From assembly GCF_042231085.1 (NCBI RefSeq), contig NZ_CP102579.1: a stretch of DNA of 64,000 bases; one strand, 5' to 3'. Source of the stretch: Corallococcus interemptor (GTDB lineage: Bacteria > Myxococcota > Myxococcia > Myxococcales > Myxococcaceae). Position 1 is the stretch's first letter. The number at the start of each line of letters is the position of its first letter. Of the stretch, positions 4,061-31,603 are shown in pieces. The notes beneath the pieces were generated by a model. It worked only from the letters and a program-made list of their open reading frames with translations, ran no database searches and was not told the DNA's origin. The position numbers and the translations under genes are program-made.

Positions 4061-5212
4061 TCAGAGCCCCAGTTGCTTGGCGATGATTTCGTTCATCACC
4101 TCACTGGTGCCGCCGCCGATGGGCCCCAGCCGCGCGTCGCGCCAGTGACGCTGGATGTCGTACTCCATCATGTAGCCCGCGCCGCCGTGGAGCTGGAGGC
4201 ACTCGTCGGCCACGCGGCAGCAGGTCTCCGTGGCGACCTTCTTGGCCATGGAGGTCTGCGCGACGGCGTACTCGCCGGCCACGTGCAGGCGCAGCGCGTG
4301 GTAGGTGAGCTGCCGCGCGCATTCACGGGCGGTGTACAGGTCCGCCAGCTTGTGGCGCACCACCTGGAAGCCCGCCAGCGTCTGCCCGAAGGCGCGGCGC
4401 TGCTTCACGTGCTCGAGCACCGTCTCCAGCATGTCGTCCATGGCGCCCAGCGCGCCCAGCGCGAGCGACAGGCGCTCCCACTGGAAGTTGCCCATGATCT
4501 GCGAGAAGCCCTGGTTCTCCACGCCCAGCAGGTTCTCCGCGGGCACGCGGCAGTCCTCGAAGAAGAGCTCCGCCGTGTCGGACGCGCGCCAGCCCACCTT
4601 CTGGAGCTTGCGCCCCACGCTGAAGCCCGGCGTGCCCCGCTCCACCACCAGCATGGACAGGCCCTTGTGGCCGCGCGACGGGTCGGTCTTCACCGCCAGC
4701 ACCACGAAGTCCGCCCGCACCCCGTTGGTGATGTACGTCTTGGAGCCGTTGACGACGTAGTGGTCGCCGTCGCGGCGGGCGGTGGTGCGCAGCCCCGCCA
4801 CGTCCGAGCCGGCGTCCGGTTCGGAGATGCCCAGGGCGCCAATCTTCTCCCCCCGGATGGCGGGGGCCAGCCAGCGCTGCTTCTGGGCGTCCGTGCCGAA
4901 CAGGTGCACGGGGCCGGTCGCGATGGTGAACTGGCCCGCCAGCCCCGCGGCCACACCGCCGGAGCCGCAGCGGCCCAGCTCCTCCAGGAGCACCGCCTCG
5001 TACAGCTCCCCGGCCGCCGTGCCCCCGTAGGCCTCCGGGTACTTCAGGCCCAGGAAGCCCAGCTCGCCGAAGCGGGTGAAGAGCTCCCGGGGGAACTCCT
5101 CCCGGGCCTCCCAGTCCGCCGCGAACGGGCGCAGCTCCTTGTCCACCACCGCCCGGACGGTGCGGCGGAAGGCGTCGTGCTCCTCCTGGAAGACCCCATG
5201 GCCCTGCAGCAT
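4061..5212 (-). CDS. acyl-CoA dehydrogenase
   Basis: MLQGHGVFQEEHDAFRR...GSDVAGLRTTARRDGDHYVVNGSKTYITNG...QLHGGAGYMMEYDIQRHWRDAR shows canonical ACAD N-terminal, middle and C-terminal signatures. The start was moved to ATG ~5210-5212 (GGAGG RBS). The longer track ORF would overlap the tRNA-Cys. Confidence 0.85.
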   Translation of the reverse strand: MLQGHGVFQEEHDAFRRTVRAVVDKELRPFAADWEAREEFPRELFTRFGELGFLGLKYPEAYGGTAAGELYEAVLLEELGRCGSGGVAAGLAGQFTIATGPVHLFGTDAQKQRWLAPAIRGEKIGALGISEPDAGSDVAGLRTTARRDGDHYVVNGSKTYITNGVRADFVVLAVKTDPSRGHKGLSMLVVERGTPGFSVGRKLQKVGWRASDTAELFFEDCRVPAENLLGVENQGFSQIMGNFQWERLSLALGALGAMDDMLETVLEHVKQRRAFGQTLAGFQVVRHKLADLYTARECARQLTYHALRLHVAGEYAVAQTSMAKKVATETCCRVADECLQLHGGAGYMMEYDIQRHWRDARLGPIGGGTSEVMNEIIAKQLGL

Positions 5213-5344
5213 CGTGTGCTCCCTCGCTCGCTGGGGGCTGACGCCCCGCGCCGCATGGTAGCGGGACGAGAAGCACGACTGGATGGTGTTGCTTCCTTGA
5301 CCGGCTCCTGCCGGGCTGCGTATAACCCCGGCCCCAATCGCTGC

Positions 5345-5416
5345 GGCGCCATAGCCAAGTGGTAAGGCAAAGGTCTGCAAAACCTTCATTCCCCGGTTCG
5401 AATCCGGGTGGCGCCT
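5345..5416 (+). tRNA. tRNA-Cys (anticodon GCA)
   Basis: GGCGCCA/TGGCGCC form a 7-bp acceptor stem. D-arm GCC-AAGTGGTAA-GGC. Anticodon stem AAGGT/ACCTT with loop CTGCAAA (U33, GCA, A37). T-arm CCCGG-TTCGAAT-CCGGG. Discriminator U73 is typical of tRNA-Cys. No encoded CCA. Confidence 0.85.
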
Positions 5417-5492
5417 CACAGACAAAAGGCCCGATGCGGAAGTCTCCGCATCGGGCCTTCTGCTTTTCCGGGGGGTGTCTTCCCGGGCGGGC

Positions 5493-7172
5493 CTAGCAGC
5501 CCAGTTCCACCGCGCCGATGTCCGGGGCCGCGCCGCAGAAGGGCTGGCCCTGGTCCAGGCCCTTGTCCTGGGCGGCGGGGGACGGGGCGAAGGTGTCCGA
5601 CACCGTCACGTCACCGCCGTTGGAGGTGGTGTCCCCGGTGGCGGCCTTGAAGGCGTCCAGGGCCTGGAGCTGGCCGTTGTGCTTGAACTGCGTGCCGGCC
5701 GGATAGAGGTTGTTGCTCATGTGGAGGCCGGGGGCCTGGCCGCCCACGTCCACGCTGACGGGCGCGTCCACCAGGTTGTTCTCCACGCGCAGCGTCTCCG
5801 TGGGGCCGCCCGTGCCGTGGCCCAGGATGATGCCGGCCTTGGCGCGGGTGATGGTGTTGTTCACCACCACGGTGCCCTTGGAGTTCTCCAGGCGGATGGC
5901 GGTGCCTTCGCCGCCGCCCGCGTCGGTGATGTCGTGCACGCGGTTGCGGCGCACGACGACGGACTGGGGCACGGGGCCCTCGTGGTTGCCGCCCACGGAG
6001 ATGCCCTTGGCGCCGTCATACAGCTCGTTGTCCTCCACCAGCACGTTGTTGGCGGAGTAGTGGATGACGAGCACGTCGCCCTTCGCCGTCTCCGACGGCC
6101 GGAACTGGTGCATCCGGTTGTTGCGGATGATGACGTCGCGGCACGTCTTGATGTCCACGGCGTTCTCCCGGTTGTTGAAGAAGTGGTTGTTCTCCACCAG
6201 CAGGCCCGTGGCGGGCGGCAGGTCGCTGAAGCCCTCCGGCCCCAGGCACTGCACGGAGTCACCGGACACGTCGTGGATGTCGTTGTTGCGCACCGTCACG
6301 TCGTAGGACGCGGGCTGCATCACGACGCCGTGCGAGTCCTTGTTGCCGGTGGTCCGCACGAAGTCGTGGATGTTGTTGTTCTCGAGGGTGGCGCCCTTGG
6401 CGTTGTTGAACAGGGTGACGCCCGCGCCGCCGGTGCCGTTGTGCAGCTCCGAGTTGGCGAGCACCGTGCCCTGCACGTCGCCCTCGAAGGTGACGCCGAA
6501 GATGGGCTGCCCCTCCACGTCGATGTCGAACCCGTCGATGACCCAGTTCGCGCGGCGCACCTGCACCGCCGCGCCGGAGCCGCTGCCCGGGGTGAGCTTG
6601 GGACGGCCCTCGCCCTGGAGGGTGATCTTCGCCTCGGGCGTGCCGGCCTGGGCGTTGTCGCCCAGCACCACGCGCTCGGCGTAGGTGCCCGCGAGCACGC
6701 GGATGCGGTCGCCGGGGCCGGCCTTGCTCACCGCCATGGCGATGGTGCGCAGCGGCGCGGCCTCCGTGCCCTCGGCGCCGTCGTCGCCGTTGGGCGACAC
6801 CACCCAGTCATGGGCGGGCGTGGTAACGGGCGTCTCCGCCATGGCCTGGGCGCTGACGGCGGGCTGGGGACCGGGCTCCGCGATGGGCGCGTGGTCCGCG
6901 TGGTCCGGCAGTTGCGCGGCGGGCGTGTTCTCCACCGGCTGCACGCCGATGGGCGGCGCCTTGCCCGGAGCGGCGGGCGCCTTCTCGACTTGTCCTGAGG
7001 GGCCCGCGTTCGTCGCGGGGGCCTGGGTACCGGCGTTCGAGGAACCGCCGGTGCCTCCGCCAGCGCCACCGCCGGCGCCACAAGCAGTCGTCCCAAGCGC
7101 CAGGGTGCAGGCGGCCAGGGAGGCCATCAGGGTGTGTCGCGTCTTCAATCCGTTGCCTCCAAGAATTCGCAT
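5493..7172 (-). CDS. secreted/lipoprotein right-handed parallel beta-helix repeat protein
   Basis: N-terminal MASLAACTLALGTTACG is a lipobox-like signal. A Pro/Ala-rich linker follows. Then repeated NN-(R/V/I) beta-helix rungs (NNRENAVDIKTCRDVIIRNNRMH, NNVLVEDNELYDG, NNTITRAKAGIILG), typical of pectate-lyase-like PbH1 repeats. The start is uncertain (7172, 7127 or 7184). Confidence 0.6.
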   Translation of the reverse strand: MRILGGNGLKTRHTLMASLAACTLALGTTACGAGGGAGGGTGGSSNAGTQAPATNAGPSGQVEKAPAAPGKAPPIGVQPVENTPAAQLPDHADHAPIAEPGPQPAVSAQAMAETPVTTPAHDWVVSPNGDDGAEGTEAAPLRTIAMAVSKAGPGDRIRVLAGTYAERVVLGDNAQAGTPEAKITLQGEGRPKLTPGSGSGAAVQVRRANWVIDGFDIDVEGQPIFGVTFEGDVQGTVLANSELHNGTGGAGVTLFNNAKGATLENNNIHDFVRTTGNKDSHGVVMQPASYDVTVRNNDIHDVSGDSVQCLGPEGFSDLPPATGLLVENNHFFNNRENAVDIKTCRDVIIRNNRMHQFRPSETAKGDVLVIHYSANNVLVEDNELYDGAKGISVGGNHEGPVPQSVVVRRNRVHDITDAGGGEGTAIRLENSKGTVVVNNTITRAKAGIILGHGTGGPTETLRVENNLVDAPVSVDVGGQAPGLHMSNNLYPAGTQFKHNGQLQALDAFKAATGDTTSNGGDVTVSDTFAPSPAAQDKGLDQGQPFCGAAPDIGAVELGC

Positions 7173-7293
7173 GAGCAGGGGCAACGCACGGTGTCGGGCG
7201 TTCTATTCACTGCCGGTCATCCAGGGCCAGACGCGCCGCAGCGGGAGGGAGAACCGTGACGCTCGGCCCCATGGCGGCTACGGTGCCGCCGCC

Positions 7294-9036
7294 GTGTCCA
7301 AAGCCGTCCTGCTCCTGACCGCCCTGCTGCTCGCCTCCTGCGCCACGCCGGCGCCCTCACCTGCCCCGAGCACCCGGGGCCTGGGCGAGCCGGAGGTCTC
7401 CGTCCCCGCCAAGCCCGCCGACGCGGGCGTGACGCCCCCTGCCCCGAGTGGCCTGGAGGATCCGCTCACGTCGGGTCTGCCCGGGCCGCAGGACCTGAAG
7501 CGCCTGGACTTCCGCAACGGCGAGCCGCGCCTCCCCATCAAGCTGATGGAGGGGCGCGAGGTCGTGACGTTCTCGCCGCGCGCGCGGATGCGGCTGCGCT
7601 TCGGCGGACCGGGGGACAAGGTGCTGGACGCGCCCGCGGGCTCGCGCTGGACGGTGCGGGTGACGCAGGGCGAGCCGGCCCAGTGGAGCGCGCGGCTGCA
7701 ACTGGGCGAGTTCCGCTTCGCGGACAAGGCGGGGCTCGCGGAGGCGCAGGAGACGTGGCGCGCGCGGGGGCTCGCGGTGCGCACGCACACGCTGGGCTCC
7801 GTGTACGGCATCGCCGGGAAGGTCATCGACAACCGGCGCTACCTCCTGCTGGGGGAGGAGGCGCTGACGCCCGAGGCCGCGGCGAAACAGCAGACGGAGC
7901 TGCTGCGCCGCTACGGCCTGCGCACCACGCTCTTCGAGGAGGTCCGCAAGCCCTCCCGCGCCATCCTGGAGCTGAAGGACGAGAACGACGCCGTGGTGGG
8001 CCTGGCGCAGGACCGGCTGGACGCGGAGACGCCGGACGGCAGCGGCTTCGACGTGCGGCAGGTGGAGTACGGCGTGGGCTACGACTTCCACGCCTTCGAG
8101 GACCGAAGCTTCCGGGGCGCGCTCCAGTTCGCCGTGGACCGGAGCGGCAAGCTCGCGGTGGTGAACGTGGTGGGCCTGGAGGACCTGCTCAAGGGGCTGG
8201 TGCCGTCCGAAATCTTCGCGCGCGCGCACCCGGAGGCGCTCAAGGCCCAGGCCGTCACCGCGCGCGGCGAGGTGCTGGCGAAGGTGGGCATCAAGCACCT
8301 GGCGGATCCATACCTCCTCTGCTCGGAGCAGCACTGCGCGGTGTACCGGGGCCGCACCGGCGAGGCGGCCAGCACCACCGCCGCGGTGGAGGCCACCCGG
8401 GGCCAGGCGCTCTTCAGTCAGGACGGCCGGCTGGTGGACTCCGTCTACAGCGCCGTGTGCGGCGGCCACACCGAGGACAACGACGTGGTGTGGGGCGGCC
8501 CGCCGGACCCCAGCCTGCGCGGCCGGCCGGACCTGCTGGAGCCCGCGCCGGACGTGCCCGGCCCGTCCAACCTCAAGGCCTGGCTGGCGACGGCGGACGT
8601 GCCCGCCGCGTGCAGGCTGTCCAGCTTCGCGCAGCCCACGAAGTTCCGGTGGGAGAAGCGCTTCACGCAGGCCCAGGTGGACGCGCTCACGGAGAAGCTG
8701 GGGGTGGGGTCCATCCAGGGGCTCGCCCTGTCCGAGCGCGGGGTGTCCGGGCGCGCCCGGCTGCTCACCCTGTCAGGCACGCGGGGCGCCACCCAGGTGC
8801 GCGGGGAGCTGAACATCCGGCGGCTCTTCGGGATGCTCAACAGCAGCATGGCCACCGTGGAGCCCGAGCGGGACGCCGAGGGCCGGCTCACCGGATGGCT
8901 GTTCCGGGGCGGCGGCTGGGGCCACGGCGTGGGCATGTGTCAGACAGGCGCCATCGGCCGGGCGGAGGCGGGCCAGACCTATCCGGAGATCCTGCGCTTC
9001 TACTTCAATGGGGCGCAGGTGGCCCCCATCTACTGA
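7294..9036 (+). CDS. SpoIID/LytB domain lipoprotein
   Basis: The internal GTG start gives MSKAVLLLTALLLASC (lipobox LASC). The C-terminus CGGHTEDNDVVWGG...GGGWGHGVGMCQTGAIGRAEAG matches the SpoIID/LytB amidase-enhancer signature. The 5' part of the 6685 ORF overlaps the opposite-strand gene and is non-coding. Confidence 0.65.
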   Translation: MSKAVLLLTALLLASCATPAPSPAPSTRGLGEPEVSVPAKPADAGVTPPAPSGLEDPLTSGLPGPQDLKRLDFRNGEPRLPIKLMEGREVVTFSPRARMRLRFGGPGDKVLDAPAGSRWTVRVTQGEPAQWSARLQLGEFRFADKAGLAEAQETWRARGLAVRTHTLGSVYGIAGKVIDNRRYLLLGEEALTPEAAAKQQTELLRRYGLRTTLFEEVRKPSRAILELKDENDAVVGLAQDRLDAETPDGSGFDVRQVEYGVGYDFHAFEDRSFRGALQFAVDRSGKLAVVNVVGLEDLLKGLVPSEIFARAHPEALKAQAVTARGEVLAKVGIKHLADPYLLCSEQHCAVYRGRTGEAASTTAAVEATRGQALFSQDGRLVDSVYSAVCGGHTEDNDVVWGGPPDPSLRGRPDLLEPAPDVPGPSNLKAWLATADVPAACRLSSFAQPTKFRWEKRFTQAQVDALTEKLGVGSIQGLALSERGVSGRARLLTLSGTRGATQVRGELNIRRLFGMLNSSMATVEPERDAEGRLTGWLFRGGGWGHGVGMCQTGAIGRAEAGQTYPEILRFYFNGAQVAPIY

Positions 9037-9154
9037 GGTCCAGGGAACAAATCGCGCGACCGGCGAGCCGTCTCGTGAATCTCTTTGATGTCCCGGGTGT
9101 TACGGGGCGCGCGTTCGGGACTGAAGAAGCGGTCCGGAGGTTTATCATCAGGCC

Positions 9155-10399
9155 GTGGGCACGGGTTCCTCGACAGACTGGCGTCAGCGGCGCGCGCGCA
9201 GGCAGCGGGCGCCCTTGCGCTACCTGGTGGCGGGCATCCTGGCGCTCCTGGCCCAGGCCGCCTTCGTGGGCTTCGTCCTCCTGGTGTCGGCCGTGCAGGC
9301 GAACCTCCCGCATGAGAAGCGCCCCGCGCGGCCCACGTCCGTGGCGGTGAGGCCGCTCACGTCGGACCAGTGGGCGAAGAACCGGGGGAACGCCACCCCG
9401 CAGCAGACGAAGCCCCGCCCCACGGAGAAGCGCGAGCCGAAGGAAGAGAAGAAGCCGGACGAGACGAAGCCCCAGGGCCAGGTGGTGGACGTGGCGCCGG
9501 GGAATGATCAGCAGTCCCCGGACGCGAAGTACCTGGCCGAGCACAACAACACGGTGGAGAAGGAGACGCGGGCGCGGGAGCAGACGGCCCACTACCGCAA
9601 CGCCATGCCCCAGCGGACCGCGCCCCAGAAGCAGGAGGGCGCGGCGCAGGACCAGGTGCAGCCCCCGCGCGTGTCGGGCAACAACGGCCAGGGCGCGGAC
9701 GACCGGACCCCGTCCCAGGGCGGCAAGAAGCCCGTCTTCGAGATGCCGGAGACGCGCCGCAAGCAGGAGATCGCCATGAAGACGGATCCGCGCGAGCGCG
9801 GCCCGGGCATGGCGGTGAAGAACCAGTCGGAGAGCGACGCCACGCAGGGAAACGCGAAGCGCCTGCGCATCCAGCCCGGCCAGGGCGAGGACAGCGAGCA
9901 GGAGGGCTCCGCGGGCCGCGTGGGCTCCCCGGGCCTGGCCACGCTGATGCCGTCGCAGGCGGCCATGGACAAGGTGGTGGGCGCGGCGCCCAACGACATG
10001 CTCCGGGACCAGGAGGAGGGCGACGGCACCTTCCTCAACACGCGCGAGTGGAAGTACGCCAGCTTCTTCAACCGCGTGAAGCAGAGCGTGGGCATGCACT
10101 GGAACCCCAACGAGCAACTGCGCATGCGCGACCCGACGGGGAACATCTACTCCGGGCGAGACCGCCAGACGCTGCTCACCATCACCCTGGACGAGCGCGG
10201 CGCGGTGAAGGACATCCAGGTGGAGAAGAGCAGCGGCCTGGACTTCCTGGACATGGAGGCCGTGGCGTCCTTCAAGCGCGCGCAGCCCTTCCCCAACCCG
10301 CCGTCCGGCCTGCTGGGCCAGGACGCGACGGTGCGCTTCCAGTTCGGCTTCTTCCTGGAGATGGGCGGCGGCCCCCGGATGAGGCTGTTCCGACAGTAG
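9155..10399 (+). CDS. TonB family energy transducer
   Basis: N-terminal TM anchor (LRYLVAGILALLAQAAFVGFVLLV), a long Pro/Lys/Glu-rich spacer, and a C-terminal TonB_C-like domain (WKYASFFNRVKQSVGMHWNP...GAVKDIQVEKSSGLDFLDMEAVASFKRAQPFPNPP). Confidence 0.7.
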   Translation: MGTGSSTDWRQRRARRQRAPLRYLVAGILALLAQAAFVGFVLLVSAVQANLPHEKRPARPTSVAVRPLTSDQWAKNRGNATPQQTKPRPTEKREPKEEKKPDETKPQGQVVDVAPGNDQQSPDAKYLAEHNNTVEKETRAREQTAHYRNAMPQRTAPQKQEGAAQDQVQPPRVSGNNGQGADDRTPSQGGKKPVFEMPETRRKQEIAMKTDPRERGPGMAVKNQSESDATQGNAKRLRIQPGQGEDSEQEGSAGRVGSPGLATLMPSQAAMDKVVGAAPNDMLRDQEEGDGTFLNTREWKYASFFNRVKQSVGMHWNPNEQLRMRDPTGNIYSGRDRQTLLTITLDERGAVKDIQVEKSSGLDFLDMEAVASFKRAQPFPNPPSGLLGQDATVRFQFGFFLEMGGGPRMRLFRQ

Positions 10400-24282: not shown

Positions 24283-24444
24283 GCGCCCATCTTCCGTCAG
24301 GTCCCGCCCGGGGCGAAGGGGAATGGCGGGGAGAAGCTCCATCTCCGCTCGAAGACACGGCCATGCAAATGAGACCGTTGATGTCGAAACGCCCGATGCG
24401 AGCGATGACACCGAAAGGACCAGGGCGGACCTACGACTCCAACG

Positions 24445-25536
24445 TCAGAAGGGGTCGAGCCTCGGGCAGGTACCAGCGAAGGGCTTCATCAACATTCGCA
24501 AGCTTTTTTCGGAGACCCTCCACCAAAGGTACTCAGGATTCATCTTCGCCAAGGCAAGAAAGGGCTCCCAAGCATCAAGCAGCTTGGGGTCCAGTTGTAA
24601 TGCACGGCATGTGTCGCCTGCCATCCGACTGATGATCCCCGCGCCGATGTCGGCAACCTGCACTCCTAGCGAACTCTCCGAGGAGACTTCCATCCGCTCC
24701 AGTAACTGAGTCGCGGGCCCTGGCATGGCAAAGGTGTAATGTGCATCGTCGCGCTCATCGCTCTTCGCCAGCATCAAAGAGAAACTCAAGCTCTCGCCAA
24801 ATTGGCGATCAGTATCTGAGACAATGCGCGCCACTTCGCCTCGCCCGCCCAAATCCTGACTGATGGCCCGGAGCATGATCGCAAACTCCGTGACTGCTGG
24901 CGTAGGACGCTCGCTTCGTGGCGGTGCATCGGGACGAACCAAACCGTAGCGGAACACATTTCCCAGACCTGACTCCACCATCCTCCAGGACTCCGTGACG
25001 CGAGAATCAGGGTGGAGCTTGAGCAACCACACCAGCGACTCACCTACTCGCCGTGTAGCCTCCGGGTCATCCGAACGAATTGCCGACTGCAGGTCCATCA
25101 GCAACTGATCTGGGACAGCATCAAAGACTTTGTTCGTCAGCCACCTGCGCCATCCCGGGCGCTCGGACTCAAGCGGCGCGCTTGGATTCAAATCGACATC
25201 CAAGAAGGTCTCGACCAGAAGATGACAGGCCAAGTATCGCTTTTCGGTAATGCCAAAATAGATCCGAGCCCCAGCGGACAATAATGACTGACCGACAGCG
25301 CGAACCACCTTCAGCCCCATTGTCGTCTTGCCTAGCTTTTGAAACTTCATCTCCCTTTGAAGCAGATCTCGATTTTTGTTCCGCAGGTCCGCGACCACAG
25401 CCTCAAGTTCATGCTCCTGCTCTGAACTCAAGAGGATCAAACAAGTCACAGCAAACGGCTGCTTCGTCTCGAACAGGTCCGCGCCCGTGCCTCCACTCTC
25501 GTCAGAGTAGAGAGTGCGCACCAATGAATTTGACAT
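24445..25536 (-). CDS. hypothetical protein with N-terminal YxDESG motif (DUF3800-like?) in low-GC islet
   Basis: 363 aa. The GC content of this gene is conspicuously lower than the flanks (~50-55% versus ~70%). The N-terminus LYSDESGGTG resembles the acidic motif of DUF3800-type proteins. The family assignment is tentative. Confidence 0.5.
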   Translation of the reverse strand: MSNSLVRTLYSDESGGTGADLFETKQPFAVTCLILLSSEQEHELEAVVADLRNKNRDLLQREMKFQKLGKTTMGLKVVRAVGQSLLSAGARIYFGITEKRYLACHLLVETFLDVDLNPSAPLESERPGWRRWLTNKVFDAVPDQLLMDLQSAIRSDDPEATRRVGESLVWLLKLHPDSRVTESWRMVESGLGNVFRYGLVRPDAPPRSERPTPAVTEFAIMLRAISQDLGGRGEVARIVSDTDRQFGESLSFSLMLAKSDERDDAHYTFAMPGPATQLLERMEVSSESSLGVQVADIGAGIISRMAGDTCRALQLDPKLLDAWEPFLALAKMNPEYLWWRVSEKSLRMLMKPFAGTCPRLDPF

Positions 25537-25704
25537 TAAACAATCCTCTTACTGTCGAGCGAGGGCTGTTCAGGACGATAGAGACCTCCGCACACGTAAA
25601 ACAGGCTCACCCGACACTCACTCGCATGACTCTGTGCCTGCGAGACCCAGGGTGATCCGTACGTCTGCGTCTGTGACGAAATCCGCCTCTCTGCCCTCTT
25701 CATG

Positions 25705-26981
25705 CTGAGGCATCCCCTCATCTGAATCAGATAAGCCCGAAGGCTTCGCGGAACACGGCGTGCTCGCGTACCAACTGACCAAACCGCTCCACCAGCGGGA
25801 GTAGACGTTCATCGCTCATGCGTGGCATGGCCATGAAGTAGTAGGCGCCTTGAGTAAAGAGCGAGTGAGTCCGCTTCTTCACGGTATTTACCTTCAGGTG
25901 CTTGTCATAGCCGAGCGCCTCGCCCGCGGCGCCCAGCAGCGTCAGCAGCACCTGTGCCAGGGCGGAAATGAGCAGCAGTCGATCTCTGCGGTCCGGTGTC
26001 TTCACGCGCACCTGCTTGAGGCCCATGCCAGACTTGAGGTCCTTCACGTCTCGGAAGGTCTCCTCGATGGTGAAGCGGCGGGCGTAGGCGTCCATCACTT
26101 CCTGGGCCGTAGCCTCATTGAAGCTGGTGGACAGGCACCAGGACTCCTTCATCCCCTTGCGCTTCACACACACCACCGCTCCGACTTGGGCCCCTGCCGC
26201 GGTGACGCGTGCGCCCCGCAGCACCTTCGCTCGGCCACCCTCCGGCACCCACTGGGCCGCAGGCTTCGTTTCTCCTTCCTCCGAGGTGACGATTACGTCC
26301 GAGCGGAAGCGCACCACGTACTCGAAGTCGAGCTGCTTCAAGAGCGCGTAGAACTTCGCATCCGCGAAGCCCCGGTCCGCCAGCACCGTCACCTGCACGT
26401 GGGAGGGAATCAACTCCCGCAGCCGCTGGAGGACCAGGTCCTCAGCGAGCTGCCGGTTGCCCGCGGAGGCCGATTTCTCCAGCGTCGTCCATAGCAGCGG
26501 CGTCGCGCGTCCATGACGAGTGACGAGGCTTGCCACCAGGGACTCCTGGTCGTCCTTCTCGAAATCCGTCCAGTCCAGTGCGACGACAGCCTCCGTACGC
26601 TCGGCCAGCACGAACGGCACCCAGGCTCCAAAGAGCTTCCAGACCTCAATGCCCCCATTGGAGAGCAGTCGGTCCACCTGCTTCACCGCGTGCTTGGAGG
26701 TGATGTCCTCGCCTCTCGCCCACGCCATGGCCTTGCCGATTGCCGCGATGGACAGGCTCGCCGCCTGCACCGCGCCTGGCGTCGCGTGCGAGAGGGACAG
26801 GATGCGTTTGACGTGCAGGTCGTCCTCGAACACCTCCGTCAAGAACGACCGCACCTGCTCTTCGTCGATGGCCACCTTGCGCGTCATGGTGGCTGCCTCT
26901 TTGCGCTGACTCCAGCGCCTTCGCACGTAGCCGTCGAGCGAGCGTGTGCTGATCAACTCGCTAGATGAGGGGATCCTTCAG
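25705..26981. mobile_element. IS4-family insertion sequence (1277 bp) with imperfect terminal inverted repeats and 9-bp target-site duplication
   Basis: Left end CTGAGGCATCCCCTCATCTGA. Right end (reverse complement) CTGAAGGATCCCCTCATCTAG, giving ~17/19 identity. Flanked by the direct repeat CTCTTCATG at 25696-25704 and 26982-26990. Contains a single DDE transposase ORF. Confidence 0.75.
25727..26887 (-). CDS. IS4-family DDE transposase
   Basis: MTRKVAIDEEQVRSFL... with DDE-region motifs LDWTDF, VLADRGFADAKFY and a C-terminal YxxRxxIEExF-like (YARRFTIEETFRDVK) signature of IS4/IS5 transposases. Confidence 0.8.
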   Translation of the reverse strand: MTRKVAIDEEQVRSFLTEVFEDDLHVKRILSLSHATPGAVQAASLSIAAIGKAMAWARGEDITSKHAVKQVDRLLSNGGIEVWKLFGAWVPFVLAERTEAVVALDWTDFEKDDQESLVASLVTRHGRATPLLWTTLEKSASAGNRQLAEDLVLQRLRELIPSHVQVTVLADRGFADAKFYALLKQLDFEYVVRFRSDVIVTSEEGETKPAAQWVPEGGRAKVLRGARVTAAGAQVGAVVCVKRKGMKESWCLSTSFNEATAQEVMDAYARRFTIEETFRDVKDLKSGMGLKQVRVKTPDRRDRLLLISALAQVLLTLLGAAGEALGYDKHLKVNTVKKRTHSLFTQGAYYFMAMPRMSDERLLPLVERFGQLVREHAVFREAFGLI

Positions 26982-27013
26982 CTCTTCATGGGCAGAGAGG
27001 TCCGACAATCACA

Positions 27014-27865
27014 TCATTTCCCCGCGCGCTGAGCCGCCTCCAGCGTGTTCTTCATCAGCATGGCAATCGTCATCGGGCCCACCCCACCCGGCACCGGCGT
27101 GATGAACGACGCGCGCTCCGCCGCGGCGGCGAACTCCACGTCCCCCACCAGCTTGCCGTCCGCCTTGCGGTTCATGCCCACGTCAATCACCACCGCGCCG
27201 GGCTTGATCCACGCGCCCTTCACCAGCTCCGGCACGCCCACCGCCACCACCAGGATGTCCGCCTGCGCCACCTCCGACGGCAGGTCGCTCTTGCGGTGGC
27301 ACACCGTCACCGTCGCGTCCTTCTGGAGCAGCATCAGCGCCTGCGGCTTGCCCACGATGTTGCTGCGGCCCACCACCACCGCGCGCTTTCCCGCCGGATT
27401 GCACCCCACCTCCTCCAACAGCCGCATCACCCCGTAGGGCGTGCACGCCCGCGTCGCCGGGCGGCCCAGCAGCAGGTTGCCCGCGTTCATCGGGTGGAAG
27501 CCGTCCGCGTCCTTCTCCGGCTTCACCGCCGCGATGATGGCGTCCGCGTCGATGTGCTTGGGCAACGGCAACTGCACCAGGATGCCGTGCACCGCCGGGT
27601 CCTCGTTCAGCCGGTGCACCAGCGCCAGGAGCTCGGCCTGGGTGATGGTCTCGTCCGGGTGGTGCTCCCAGGAGTTGAAGCCCACCTCCTCGGCGGCCTT
27701 CTTCTTGCCCGTCACGTAGATTTTCGACGCCGGGTCCTCGCCCACGCGCACCACGGCGAGCCCCGGGGTGATGCCGCGCTCCGCCTTCAGGCGCGCCACC
27801 TCCTCCTTGATCTCCGCCCGCACGCGCGCCGCCACTGCCTTGCCGTCAATCAACTGAGCCGTCAT
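27014..27865 (-). CDS. folD: bifunctional methylenetetrahydrofolate dehydrogenase/methenyl-THF cyclohydrolase
   Basis: 283 aa [20 protein letters not shown]...[11 protein letters not shown]...[15 protein letters not shown] is collinear with FolD. The ORF-track N-extension to 28663 is spurious. Confidence 0.9.
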
Positions 27866-27916
27866 ACGCCCCACCTTATGCAAGACTGGCCCGGCACAAG
27901 GGAGCGAAGCGAAGGC

Positions 27917-28753
27917 ATGGGCGCGGGAAAAGTTCTCGGGGCGATGTTGGGTCTCATGGCCGGCCTCCTCATTGGCGGCCCCTGGGCCATCGTGCTCGCC
28001 CTCATCGTGGGCACGGGCCTGGGCCACTACTTCGACGAACAGCACGCCGCGCCCCCGGACTTCCCTGAAATCTTCAGCGACTTCCCCGTCACCTTCGAGC
28101 CGCCTCCCAAGCAGGCCCCCCTCTCCCAGGGCCCCGGCGAGTTCCCCATCGTCCAGGCCCCGGACGAGGACCCGCTCGACCGCGACATCACCGCCCTCTT
28201 CGTGGACGTGGCCCGCGCCGACGGCGACATGCGCCGCGAGGAGGTCCGCGAGGTCCGCCGCTACTTCGAGGAGGTCCTCCACGCCGACGCCCACACCGTC
28301 CAGGCCGTGCGCCGCCACCTCAAGGACTTCCTCTCCCACCCCGCCTCCCTGGACGCCCCCGCCGCCCTCGCCTCCTGCCTGGACTCCCTGCCTTCGGGCG
28401 AACGGCTCCGCCTGCTGGACGCCCTCTACGAGATGGCGCTCGCGGACGGCCCCCTCCAGCGCTCCGAACGCGAGGCCCTGAAGCGCATGGCCGAGGGACT
28501 GGACGTCCCCGACGCCAAGGTCCAGGCCCTGGCCGAGCAGCACCTGGGCGACGCCACCGCCCACTACCAGACGCTGGGCCTCCCCCCGGACGCCACCGAC
28601 GCGGAGGTGAAGAGCGCCTACCGCAAGCTCGCCGCCCGCTTCCACCCGGACAAGGCCAGCCACCTGGCGCCCAGGGCCGCCGAGCAGGCCGCCCGCCGGT
28701 TCCAGGCCGTCCGCGACGCCTACGAGGAAATCCGCAGGCTGCGCGGCCTGTAG
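27917..28753 (+). CDS. DjlA-like co-chaperone (TM anchor + TerB-like + C-terminal J domain)
   Basis: N-terminal TM segment [29 protein letters not shown]. Central TerB-like region. C-terminal J domain [31 protein letters not shown]. The internal ATG 27917 is in frame with the longer track ORF. Confidence 0.7.
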
Positions 28754-28777
28754 CCCGGGTTAGAAGACAGGAATCCC

Positions 28778-29482
28778 ATGAGCCAGCGTCCCCCCAAGAA
28801 GAAGGAAGCGGAGTTCCAGAACAACCCGTTCAAGTCCGCCATCAAGACGCTTCAGGATCAGCAGAAGCAGGAGAAGGAAGCCGCCGCCGCCCAGGCCGCC
28901 GCGAAGAAGAAGGCCGCCGCGCCGAAGCCCACCAAGGCCCCCAAGGCCCGTCCGGAGGACGACGACGTGGGCCTCTTCTTCTCCGCCATGGACGGCGTGC
29001 AGCAGATCACCAACCGCGGGGAGGCCCCCAAGACGAACCCGCGCCTGCCGGAGCTCATCGACGACAACGCGGAGGCGCTCGCGCAGCTCTCCGACCTGGT
29101 CGCCGTGGACGGGCCGCTGTCCTTCACCGGCTCGGACGAGTCCTTCGAGGGCGCCTCCCCCGGCACCGACCCCAACCTGCTGCGCTCGCTGCGCCGGGGC
29201 GACTTCTCCGTGCAGGACCGGCTGGACCTCCACGGGAAGACGCAGCGCGAGGCCCAGGCCGCCGTGGAGCGCTTCCTGTCCGACAGCCGCCGCGCCAAGC
29301 GCCGCTGCGTGCTCATCGTCCACGGGCGCGGTTTGAATTCCAAGGATCAGATCCCGGTGCTCAAGGACGCGGTGAGGGATCTGCTGTCGCAGAAGCGGCT
29401 GGAGCGGATGGTGCTGGCGTTCTCCACTGCCCGTCCGCAGGACGGCGGGGCTGGCGCCGTCTACGTGCTGCTGCGCCGATAG
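28778..29482 (+). CDS. Smr (MutS2 C-terminal-like) domain protein
   Basis: Lys/Ala-rich N-terminus. C-terminal Smr domain LDLHGKTQREAQAAVERFL...CVLIVHGRGLNS. Confidence 0.7.
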   Translation: MSQRPPKKKEAEFQNNPFKSAIKTLQDQQKQEKEAAAAQAAAKKKAAAPKPTKAPKARPEDDDVGLFFSAMDGVQQITNRGEAPKTNPRLPELIDDNAEALAQLSDLVAVDGPLSFTGSDESFEGASPGTDPNLLRSLRRGDFSVQDRLDLHGKTQREAQAAVERFLSDSRRAKRRCVLIVHGRGLNSKDQIPVLKDAVRDLLSQKRLERMVLAFSTARPQDGGAGAVYVLLRR

Positions 29483-29518
29483 CTTTACGCGTGGCCGTGG
29501 CTGTGCATACATGCCGCC

Positions 29519-30511
29519 ATGGTTCGCGACCTCATTGACCTCCACATCCACGTGGGTGGCGCGGTGGCTCCGCACATCCTGTGGTCCATCGCCCACCAGC
29601 AGGGCTTCAAGCTCCCCGTCAAGAACTACTTCGACTTCGTCGAGCTGATCACCTCCCGTCCGGGCAAGGTGGGCAGCCTCGACGACTACCTGAAGATCCT
29701 CCACACCTGGACGGAGAAGATCCAATCGTCTCCCAGCGCCATCGAGCGCTCCGTCTACGAGGTGATTGGCAAGGAGTACCGGGGCAGCCGCGTCACCCAG
29801 ATCGAGCTGCGCTTCAACCCGATGAAGCGCAACCTCTCCAGCGAGCTGGACCTGGACCACATCATCCACGCGGCGCTGCGGGGCATGGACCGCGCGACGC
29901 TGGAGTACGGCGTGAAGGTGGGCCTCATCTTCTGCCTGGCCCGCGAGTTCGACCACAAGCTCAACAGCATCATCGTGGAGAAGGCCATCAAGTACCGCTC
30001 GCGCGGCGTGTACGGCATCGACCTGGCCGGCACGGAGCGCGACGCGATGGAGCACAAGCCCTCGCTCTCCGAGTACGAGGACCTCTACGCCCGCGCGCGC
30101 AAGGGCGGCCTCAAGTGCACCGTGCACACCGGCGAGACGGCCGGCACGGGCGCGGGCGGCCTGATGGCGGCGGTGGAGAGGCTCAAGCCCCACCGCATCG
30201 GCCACGGCATCCGCGCCGCGTACGACGAGTCCGCGATGAAGATTTTGCGTGAGAACAACATCACGCTGGAGCTCTGCCCCACGTCCAACATCCACACCAA
30301 GGCCGTGGAGGGTCTGCAGGAGCTCAAGCACATCATGCAGACGTTCTGGGACCGCAAGGTGAAGTTCACCATCAACACGGACGGCCCCTACCTGCTGGAG
30401 ACGGACATGCGGCGGGAGATTGAGATCGTCGAGTCCAACGGCCTGCTCACCCCCGAGCAGGTGGACCAGGCACTCGCGTGGGCGCGCGAGGCGTCCTTCA
30501 TCCCGGCCTGA
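29519..30511 (+). CDS. adenosine/adenine deaminase family protein
   Basis: N-terminal metal-binding HIHVGG. HTGE motif. C-terminal FTINTDGP (the SLNTDDP equivalent). Confidence 0.8.
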   Translation: MVRDLIDLHIHVGGAVAPHILWSIAHQQGFKLPVKNYFDFVELITSRPGKVGSLDDYLKILHTWTEKIQSSPSAIERSVYEVIGKEYRGSRVTQIELRFNPMKRNLSSELDLDHIIHAALRGMDRATLEYGVKVGLIFCLAREFDHKLNSIIVEKAIKYRSRGVYGIDLAGTERDAMEHKPSLSEYEDLYARARKGGLKCTVHTGETAGTGAGGLMAAVERLKPHRIGHGIRAAYDESAMKILRENNITLELCPTSNIHTKAVEGLQELKHIMQTFWDRKVKFTINTDGPYLLETDMRREIEIVESNGLLTPEQVDQALAWAREASFIPA

Positions 30512-30514
30512 CGC

Positions 30515-31603
30515 ATGTACGGCCTGACTCGCGCATTGCTCTTCAGCCTGCCCCCGGAGCCCGCGCACCGGCTGGGCATGTCGGGGCTCGCGGCCCTGGG
30601 GAAGTGGAACGCCCGCTGCCGCGCCATGCGCGAGCACACGCTGCGCCTGGCGCCCATGGACCTGTCCGTGGAGCTGGCGGGGCTGAAGTTCGCCCACCCG
30701 GTGGCGCTCGCCGCCGGGCTGGACAAGGACGCGGAGGCCGTGGACGGGCTGTTCGCCTGCGGCTTCTCCGCGGTGGAGATCGGCACCGTCACGCCGAAGC
30801 CCCAGCCCGGCAACCCGAAGCCGCGCCTGTTCCGCCTGCCGGAGCACCGCGCGGTCATCAACCGCATGGGCTTCAACAACCACGGCGCGGCCACCGCGGC
30901 GGAGCGCCTCAAGGCCCGCGAGTGGAAGCCCGGCCCGCTGGGCGTGAACATCGGCAAGAACAAGGACACGCCGCTGGAGCGCGCGGTGGACGACTACGTG
31001 GCGTGCGTGGACGCGCTCGCGCCGCTGGGGGACTACGTCGTCGTCAACGCGTCGTCACCCAACACGCCGGGCCTGCGCAAGCTCCAGGAGCCGGAGGCGC
31101 TGTCCGCGCTGCTGCTCGCGGTGCGCGAGCGGATGGACGCCGTGGCCCCGGGCACGCCGCTGTTCCTGAAGATCGCCCCGGACCTCACGCCCGAGGCCGT
31201 GGATGAGGTCGTGGACGTGGCGATGGCGCGCGGGCTGTCCGGGCTCATCGCCACCAACACCACCCTCACCCGCCCCTTCGAGCACAAGCACTCGAAGGAG
31301 GCCGGCGGCCTGTCCGGCGCCCCCGTGCGCGAGCTGTCCAACGCCGTCATCCGCCGCGCGTACCAGCGGAGCCAGGGCGCCCTGCCCCTCATCGGCGTGG
31401 GCGGGGTGTTCACCGCGCAGGACGTCTACGAGAAGCTGCGCGCGGGCGCCACGGTGGTGCAGGTGTACACGGGCTTCATCTACGAGGGCCCGGGCATGGT
31501 GGACCGCATCCTCCCGGAGCTGGGCGCCCTGCTGGCCCGCGACGGCTTCGCCTCCGTGCGCGACGTCATTGGCGTGGACGCTCGCGAGGGCACGCCCGCG
31601 TAG
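30515..31603 (+). CDS. pyrD: dihydroorotate dehydrogenase (quinone), class 2
   Basis: N-terminal membrane-association extension. AAGLDKD, GFSAVEIGTVTPKPQPGNPKPRLFRL, NRMGFNN and NASSPNTPGLR motifs. Confidence 0.9.
   Translation: MYGLTRALLFSLPPEPAHRLGMSGLAALGKWNARCRAMREHTLRLAPMDLSVELAGLKFAHPVALAAGLDKDAEAVDGLFACGFSAVEIGTVTPKPQPGNPKPRLFRLPEHRAVINRMGFNNHGAATAAERLKAREWKPGPLGVNIGKNKDTPLERAVDDYVACVDALAPLGDYVVVNASSPNTPGLRKLQEPEALSALLLAVRERMDAVAPGTPLFLKIAPDLTPEAVDEVVDVAMARGLSGLIATNTTLTRPFEHKHSKEAGGLSGAPVRELSNAVIRRAYQRSQGALPLIGVGGVFTAQDVYEKLRAGATVVQVYTGFIYEGPGMVDRILPELGALLARDGFASVRDVIGVDAREGTPA

What the first reader, a model, noticed from the sequence alone, without database searches (positions are those of the whole stretch)
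25696..26990. Intact IS4-family element with recognisable inverted repeats and 9-bp target-site duplication (recent transposition)
The direct repeat CTCTTCATG occurs at 25696-25704 and 26982-26990. It brackets a 1277-bp unit whose termini are imperfect inverted repeats (CTGAGGCATCCCCTCATCTGA versus CTGAAGGATCCCCTCATCTAG on the other end, reverse-complemented). The unit encodes one DDE transposase.

An intact duplication means no subsequent deletion or recombination has occurred. The element is probably active and likely present in other copies. The insertion point is ~30 bp downstream of folD's stop and next to the low-GC gene. It could supply outward promoter activity toward either.
Basis: seen in the sequence. 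Interest (0 to 1): 0.5.

Follow-up and report, generated by a model that had tools for sequence, protein, structure and literature searches.

The report
Recently inserted IS10-like insertion sequence
This is an ordinary but intact 1277-bp jumping gene of the IS4 family (IS10 type) that recently landed just downstream of folD in a Corallococcus genome; closely related strains still carry the unoccupied site.

Summary
A 1277-bp element (25705-26981) has imperfect 21-bp terminal inverted repeats. It is flanked by CTCTTCATG at 25696-25704 and 26982-26990, the only two copies of that 9-mer in the window.

It carries one unbroken 386-aa gene on the minus strand. The protein passes the NCBIfam IS4-family model and has the DDE triad and the Y-(2)-R-(3)-E-(6)-K signature. 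Size, 5'-CT ends and 9-bp duplication match the published IS10 subgroup. One terminus matches an IS10A terminus at 17 of 17 bases.

- Two closely related genomes, including C. coralloides KYC2213, are 99.4-99.5% identical over the 4 kb on the folD side. They read CTCTTCATG once, with no element.
- Homology to copies in other Corallococcus and Myxococcus genomes stops exactly at the proposed termini.
- Four other insertions also have perfect 9-bp duplications.

It lies in the same orientation as folD.

Copy number in the host genome and any outward promoter activity remain unshown. This is a new, unnamed member of a well-known kind, of low interest.

The parts
25705..26981 (-). Complete insertion sequence, 1277 bp (IS4 family, IS10 subgroup)
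   Evidence: blastn homology to seven full-length copies (L001, L002, L004, L005, L048, L049 and others) spans element positions 1-1277. Flanks differ at every copy.
25727..26887 (-). Transposase gene, 386 aa plus stop. The ATG at 26887 follows AAGAGG. The mechanical ORF extends to a TTG at 26956.
   Evidence: NF033591 IS4 family, 226 bits against a cut-off of 152. Pfam DDE_Tnp_1. D105, D171, E275 and Y268, R271, K282 are invariant in the alignment with IS10A and ISAs18. No internal stops; dN/dS is 0.08-0.10 against the closest copies.
26961..26981 (.). Terminal inverted repeat at the transposase 5' end (IRL by convention); reverse complement is CTGAAGGATCCCCTCATCTAG
   Evidence: The first 17 bases are identical to one terminus of IS10A in L046. 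Conserved in other copies.
25705..25725 (.). Terminal inverted repeat at the transposase 3' end (IRR): CTGAGGCATCCCCTCATCTGA
   Evidence: The same terminus is present in L001, L025, L027 and L039 and is near-identical in the others.
25696..25704 (.). Target-site duplication, left copy (CTCTTCATG)
   Evidence: A single copy is present in the empty sites L043 and L044 at 5205-5213.
26982..26990 (.). Target-site duplication, right copy (CTCTTCATG)
25686..25696 (-). 3' arm (in folD sense) of the hairpin split by the insertion (CCTCTCTGCCC on the + strand)
   Evidence: Perfect 11-nt complement of 26990-27000 (I10). The reconstituted hairpin folds at -33.6 kcal/mol with z = -5.0.
26990..27000 (-). 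5' arm (in folD sense) of the split hairpin, 13 nt after the folD stop codon
   Evidence: The motif is unique in the window.
27014..27880 (-). folD, the upstream neighbour in the same orientation as the transposase gene; not part of the element
   Evidence: Pfam THF_DHG_CYH and THF_DHG_CYH_C.
24445..25536 (-). Low-GC DUF3800 gene, the downstream neighbour in the same orientation; an independent indel, not part of the element
   Evidence: Pfam DUF3800 at 21.6 bits, just above the cut-off of 21. GC is 52-58% against about 70-75% in the flanks. Absent from L043, with remnants in L044.

Best explanation
Window 25705-26981 is an intact, autonomous insertion sequence of the IS4 family, IS10 subgroup, belonging to a lineage that circulates in Corallococcus and Myxococcus.

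Its single DDE transposase is inferred, by analogy with IS10 and IS50, to bind the roughly 21-bp terminal inverted repeats. It would excise the element by cut-and-paste through hairpin intermediates and join its 3' ends to target DNA with a 9-bp stagger. Repair of that stagger produced the CTCTTCATG duplication.

The insertion happened recently, after this strain diverged from strains whose flanking DNA is only about 0.5% different.

It landed in the loop of an 11-bp-stem hairpin 23 nt downstream of the folD stop codon, probably folD's transcription terminator. The two 9-bp-staggered cuts fall symmetrically about the hairpin dyad: the duplication equals the closing C-G pair plus the 7-nt loop.

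The hairpin is now split. The transposase gene lies in the same orientation as folD, so folD transcripts may read into the element and toward the downstream DUF3800 gene. This last step is inference only.
For: Shown:
- Family: NF033591 scores 226 bits against a cut-off of 152, and IS10A hits the same model. DDE and YREK residues are invariant.
- IS10-subgroup criteria from PMC2266710 Table 1 are all met: size 1200-1350 bp, 5'-CT ends, YREK motif, 9-bp direct repeat.
- One terminus matches IS10A at 17 of 17 bases.
- Empty sites with a single CTCTTCATG occur in L043 and L044. Their folD-side flank is 99.4-99.5% identical over 4019 bp.
- Element boundaries are confirmed by seven full-length and 15 partial copies in other genomes.
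- Perfect 9-bp duplications occur at four further independent insertions: L049, L004, L028/L029 and L030/L023.
- dN/dS is 0.08-0.10.
- The reconstituted hairpin folds at -33.6 kcal/mol, z = -5.0. In L043 the one stem difference keeps pairing as G-U.
Against: - No second copy lies in the window, and no identical protein is in the public collection. Current activity is therefore unproven.
- The terminal repeats differ at 4 of 21 positions.
- Three related copies lack duplications (L002, L005, L048).
- The hairpin lacks a canonical U-tract and is not called a terminator by the simple scan.
- No promoter-like site and no Rfam RNA-OUT-like antisense RNA was detected. IS10-style regulation is not demonstrated.
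Confidence: 0.93

Rival explanations
1. The 9-bp repeat is a coincidence or a by-product of the local palindrome, and the unit is an old, fixed transposase gene remnant rather than a recent insertion.
For: The repeat lies inside a palindromic context (I10). One of 100 shuffles gave two copies of the 9-mer somewhere in the window.
Against: The empty-site alleles read CTCTTCATG once, with the flanks joining exactly at the repeat. Four other insertions of the family have perfect 9-bp duplications. The ORF is intact.
Confidence: 0.01
2. The occupied site is ancestral, and the related strains lost the element by precise excision, through slippage between the 9-bp repeats. In that case the insertion is not recent.
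For: Precise excision restores exactly a single copy of the duplication, so it cannot be told apart from an empty site by sequence alone. The same intergenic region has suffered deletions in L044.
Against: Two genomes with different states of the neighbouring DUF3800 gene both lack the element: absent in L043, remnant in L044. This would need two independent rare events. From general knowledge of Tn10/IS10, precise excision is orders of magnitude rarer than transposition. The duplication and inverted repeats are undecayed.
Confidence: 0.04
3. The element is structurally intact but no longer mobile in this host: a single, dead-end copy.
For: It is single-copy in the window. The closest complete genome has only a truncated copy. 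The inverted repeats have 4 mismatches. No promoter-like site was detected.
Against: The insertion is very recent. The ORF is full length with all catalytic residues. Both termini are the consensus termini of the family.
Confidence: 0.2

Closest known systems
IS10 / IS10A (Tn10), IS4 family, IS10 subgroup
   Same: - Single DDE transposase of about 390-400 aa that hits the same NCBIfam model, NF033591.
- DDE and YREK residues align.
- Size: 1277 bp against about 1328 bp.
- 5'-CTGA...TCAG termini, with 17 of 17 identity of one end: CTGAAGGATCCCCTCAT.
- 9-bp target duplication (PMC2266710 Table 1).
- The transposase start lies about 95 nt from the end, similar to IS10 (the IS10 figure is from my own knowledge).
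   Different: - Only 25% amino-acid identity.
- It lacks a roughly 24-aa insertion that IS10A has between the second D and the E.
- The five duplications seen do not resemble the IS10 hotspot NGCTNAGCN (from my own knowledge, compared).
- No RNA-OUT match in Rfam.
- The host is a 70% GC myxobacterium.
ISAs18 (Aeromonas; annotated 'IS4-like element ISAs18 family')
   Same: It is the closest named IS found: 42-44% amino-acid identity over nearly the full length. It hits the same NCBIfam model. Its terminus is similar...ATGAGGGGATCTCTGAG.
   Different: It comes from a different phylum and is carried on plasmids. Its ends and duplication were not analysed here.
Unnamed 'IS4 family transposase' elements of Corallococcus, Myxococcus, Stigmatella, Cystobacter and Sorangium
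   Same: Same lineage: 93% (C. exercitus), 88-89% (C. exiguus, C. interemptor, RDP092CA), 64% (C. terminator, Stigmatella) and 50% (Sorangium) amino-acid identity. They share the same termini and 9-bp duplications.
   Different: No identical full-length copy is on record. The nearest DNA is a 468-bp truncated copy, 98.9% identical, at another locus of C. coralloides KYC2213.
IS50 / Tn5 transposase (solved structures 1MUH, 1MUS)
   Same: Same family. The YREK region aligns.
   Different: The match is only marginal, E = 0.03-0.04 over 69 residues. It belongs to a different subgroup.

Membership tests
IS4 family | Single DDE transposase ORF without a frameshift | tested here: met
   One 386-aa ORF with no internal stops. 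D105, D171 and E275 are invariant against IS10A, ISAs18 and the myxobacterial relatives.
IS4 family | Y-(2)-R-(3)-E-(6)-K signature in region C1 (PMC2266710) | tested here: met
   YARRFTIEETFRDVK. Y268, R271, E275 and K282 are invariant columns. Definition taken.
IS4 family | Curated family HMM above its cut-off | tested here: met
   NF033591 scores 226.4 bits against a cut-off of 152. IS701, IS1380, IS1634 and ISH3 models all score far below their cut-offs.
IS4 family | Target duplication of about 8-13 bp, against 4-6 bp in IS701, ISH3 and IS1634 | tested here: met
   9 bp in the window and at four other insertions.
IS10 subgroup of IS4 | Size 1200-1350 bp | tested here: met
   1277 bp. Range taken from PMC2266710 Table 1.
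IS10 subgroup of IS4 | 5'-CT termini | tested here: met
   Both ends read CTGA.... One end matches IS10A at 17 of 17 bases.
IS10 subgroup of IS4 | 9-bp direct repeats | tested here: met
   Five of five insertions with a duplication have exactly 9 bp.
IS10 subgroup of IS4 | Transposase clusters with IS10 rather than with other subgroups | tested here: inconclusive
   It shares its best NCBIfam model with IS10A. BLASTP to IS10A gives E = 1e-32 at 25% identity, against E = 0.03 to IS50/Tn5. No formal tree with ISfinder reference sets could be built.
IS10 (the element itself) | Antisense RNA-OUT / pIN-pOUT regulation and Dam control | tested here: not met
   No Rfam match to any IS10-type RNA at E <= 10. 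No sigma-70-like promoters. The scans are crude, so functional analogues are not excluded. This feature defines IS10 itself, not the subgroup.
IS4 family | Cut-and-paste transposition via DNA hairpin intermediates | not testable with these tools
   Needs a biochemical or genetic assay.

The most novel reading that the evidence does not exclude
The transposase may choose targets by structure or symmetry. On this reading it was drawn to the loop of folD's terminator hairpin, with staggered cuts placed exactly on the dyad. The insertion would then abolish folD termination and couple transposase expression, and perhaps expression of the adjacent horizontally acquired DUF3800 gene, to folD read-through.

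Only the window site of the five reconstructed target sites is significantly structured, so this is most likely a single coincidence.
Probability: 0.08. Interest if true: 0.35.

Novelty: new member of a known kind. Interest (0 to 1): 0.13.

Why it matters
The main value is for annotation and as a strain marker. It gives exact ends, inverted repeats and duplication length for an unnamed IS10-subgroup element of Corallococcus and Myxococcus. It also documents a very recent transposition event in a C. coralloides-like strain.

A minor point is that it probably inactivates the hairpin after folD. It also lies in a small hypervariable gap between an OmpA-family gene and folD, which carries different low-GC cargo in different strains. 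None of this would surprise a specialist.

Tried and rejected
- Exact-protein look-ups of the transposase, FolD and the DUF3800 protein found nothing. The host genome is evidently not in that collection. The Smr neighbour worked instead.
- A look-up of P0006 failed.
- The Rfam scan for an IS10-like antisense RNA gave only chance-level hits.
- Sigma-70 promoter scans found nothing in the element or at the empty site. The hairpin is not called a terminator because it lacks a T-run.
- Fold-back sequestration of the transposase ribosome-binding site in folD read-through RNA: the fold is no more stable than shuffles (z = +1.2). Rejected as unsupported.
- General hairpin targeting: the four other reconstructed target sites are not significantly structured (z from -1.4 to +1.3). 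Not supported.
- The hairpin as a REP-like repeated element: it is unique in the window. Rejected.
- The element and the DUF3800 gene as one composite unit: rejected. The duplication flanks the element alone, and L044 has DUF3800 remnants without the element.
- The L025 copy as the same insertion: rejected. Its flank is different, and the apparent 7-bp extension of the match is a chance resemblance.
- PADLOC gave no hit for the DUF3800 protein.
- A literature search found no paper describing this element in Corallococcus.

Full report
**Observation**

The 9-mer CTCTTCATG lies at 25696-25704 and 26982-26990. These are its only two occurrences on either strand of the 64-kb window, against 0.21 expected. 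The repeats directly abut imperfect inverted repeats: CTGAGGCATCCCCTCATCTGA at 25705-25725, and the reverse complement of 26961-26981, CTGAAGGATCCCCTCATCTAG. These match at 17 of 21 positions, and the repeat finder gives 20 nt at 90% (I2). The enclosed unit is 1277 bp. It contains one long minus-strand ORF, 25727-26956. The likely start is the ATG at 26887, preceded by AAGAGG, which gives 386 aa.

**What the protein is**

- It hits Pfam DDE_Tnp_1 at 1.4e-14.
- It hits the NCBIfam 'IS4 family transposase' model NF033591 at 226 bits against a cut-off of 152. Models for IS701, IS1380, IS1634 and ISH3 stay far below their cut-offs.
- An alignment with myxobacterial relatives, ISAs18 and IS10A has invariant D105, D171 and E275. 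It also has invariant Y268, R271, E275 and K282, the Y-(2)-R-(3)-E-(6)-K signature (YARRFTIEETFRDVK).
- That signature, plus an unframeshifted ORF, is the published hallmark of the IS4 family (PMC2266710).
- The only solved relatives are the Tn5 transposases, at a marginal E of 0.03-0.04 over the YREK region.

**Subgroup**

Table 1 of PMC2266710 characterises the IS10 subgroup by a size of 1200-1350 bp, 5'-CT ends, a YREK motif and 9-bp direct repeats. All four are met. IS10A, taken from plasmid NZ_KY200950.1 as L046, hits the same NCBIfam model at 407 bits. It aligns with the window protein at 25% identity, E = 1e-32. One IS10A terminus, CTGAAGGATCCCCTCAT, is identical at 17 of 17 bases to the window terminus at 26981. 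The closest named element found is ISAs18 of Aeromonas, at 42-44% identity.

**Other copies and true ends**

A scan of one genome per species found 42 related loci, mostly in Corallococcus, Myxococcus and Sorangium.

- blastn of the 1277-bp unit against them aligns positions 1-1277 with L001, L002, L004, L005, L048 and L049, and the flanks differ at each.
- Fifteen partial copies end at the same CTGA...TCAG termini.
- Perfect 9-bp duplications occur at L049 (CGTGCGGCC) and L004 (CGGTGCTTG).
- Two more are split over contig ends: L028/L029 (GGAGGATGG) and L030/L023 (CGCCGTGAC).
- Three copies (L002, L005, L048) lack duplications, as expected after recombination or adjacent deletion.

The closest full-length proteins are 93% identical (C. 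exercitus, and a Logan assembly) and 88-89% identical (several Corallococcus). All are annotated only as 'IS4 family transposase'. No identical protein is on record. dN/dS against the nearest copies is 0.08-0.10, so the transposase is under purifying selection. Within the window the element is single-copy.

**Empty site**

Exact look-up of the neighbouring Smr protein retrieved three syntenic loci: L043 (GCA_020037015.1), L044 (C. coralloides KYC2213) and L045 (GCA_020036995.1).

- Window 26982-31000 aligns to L043 and L044 positions 5205-9223 at 99.5% and 99.4%.
- Window 25646-25704 aligns to L043 5155-5213.
- L043 5205-5213 is therefore a single CTCTTCATG matched by both window flanks. L044 also has the 9-mer once.

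It shows insertion after divergence from strains that differ by about 0.5% in flanking DNA. Precise excision in two lineages is the only alternative and is much less parsimonious. KYC2213 carries, at a different locus, a 468-bp truncated copy that is 98.9% identical. The element lineage is therefore resident in this species.

**Target**

The duplication is flanked by a perfect 11-nt inverted repeat, 25686-25696 and 26990-27000 (I10). Removing the element in silico gives, in folD sense, CCUCUCUGCCC-AUGAAGA-GGGCAGAGAGG. This begins 14 nt after the folD stop codon (27014-27016) and folds at -33.6 kcal/mol, z = -5.0. In L043 the one stem difference keeps pairing as G-U.

The duplication is exactly the closing C-G pair plus the 7-nt loop, so the staggered cuts are symmetric about the dyad. 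The hairpin is unique in the window. It lacks a T-run, so the simple scan does not call it a terminator. I infer that it is folD's terminator or a 3' stabiliser.

It is now split, and the transposase gene has the same orientation as folD. Read-through into the element is therefore plausible but unshown. The four other reconstructed target sites are not significantly structured, so hairpin targeting is not a general property.

- No sigma-70-like promoter was found in or around the element.
- No Rfam RNA-OUT-type antisense RNA was found.
- folD lies upstream with its 3' end toward the element, so it cannot be activated in sense.
- The DUF3800 gene (24445-25536) starts 168 bp beyond the other end in the same orientation, so it could receive read-through.
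- Copy number in the host genome could not be tested.

**Context**

The gap between the OmpA-family gene and folD is hypervariable.

- In L043 it is about 80 bp and bare.
- In L044 it holds DUF3800 remnants, with a deletion joining at CCTCTT microhomology.
- In the window it holds the intact low-GC DUF3800 gene plus the element.
- In L045 it holds about 3.3 kb of different low-GC DNA, including a 610-aa SIR2/TPR protein with PADLOC SIR2-type hits.

The element and the DUF3800 gene are independent events.

**Verdict**

This is a textbook, recently inserted, apparently functional IS10-subgroup element. It is an unnamed new member of a well-known kind. Interest is low.

Noticed in passing
window 24396-25645; L043 5136-5154; L044 5005-5204; L045 1937-5240: The gap between the OmpA-family gene and folD is a hypervariable spot among strains that are about 99% identical. 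It is bare in L043. L044 has DUF3800 remnants. The window has an intact low-GC (52-58%) DUF3800 gene. L045 has about 3.3 kb of other low-GC DNA with a 610-aa SIR2/TPR protein that hits PADLOC SIR2-type defence models. It may be a small defence or cargo hotspot.
   Followed up: partly
L044 5185-5213 vs window 25530-25551 and 25694-25704: In C. coralloides KYC2213 the DUF3800 start region (TTGACATCAAACAATCCTCTT) is joined directly to CATGGGCAGAGAGG. This is a deletion with CCTCTT microhomology that removed the left hairpin arm but kept the 9-mer.
   Followed up: partly
window 25686-25696 / 26990-27000; L043 5195-5223: The 11-bp-stem hairpin after folD is perfect in the window. In L043 it carries one substitution that still pairs as G-U in folD sense. 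This is weak support that the stem is functional.
   Followed up: partly
window 26961-26981 vs L046 1603-1619: One terminus of enterobacterial IS10A and one terminus of this myxobacterial element are identical over 17 bases, including an internal GGATCC/GATC. The transposases share only 25% identity. In IS10 a terminal GATC is a Dam control site (from my own knowledge). Its relevance here is unknown.
   Followed up: no
L002, L005, L048: Three full-length related copies lack any target duplication (2-5 of 9 matches). This suggests recombination between copies or adjacent deletions in those genomes.
   Followed up: no
L011-L020 (Sorangium cellulosum So ceGT47): At least ten loci, all with essentially the same score, carry a 50%-identical relative in one Sorangium genome. 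Several lie within about 45 kb of each other (around 7.43-7.48 Mb). This indicates an expansion of the family there.
   Followed up: no
L038 (BNCN01000003.1, 'Comamonas sp. KCTC 72670'): A 253-bp fragment of this myxobacterial element type, 78% identical and including the terminus, sits in a record labelled Comamonas. This is either horizontal transfer or a mislabelled or contaminated assembly.
   Followed up: no
L001, L003 and many ~1.26-1.3 kb contigs: Many assemblies hold the element as a stand-alone contig of about its own length, for example the 1280-bp C. exercitus contig. This is the signature of a collapsed multicopy repeat in those genomes.
   Followed up: no
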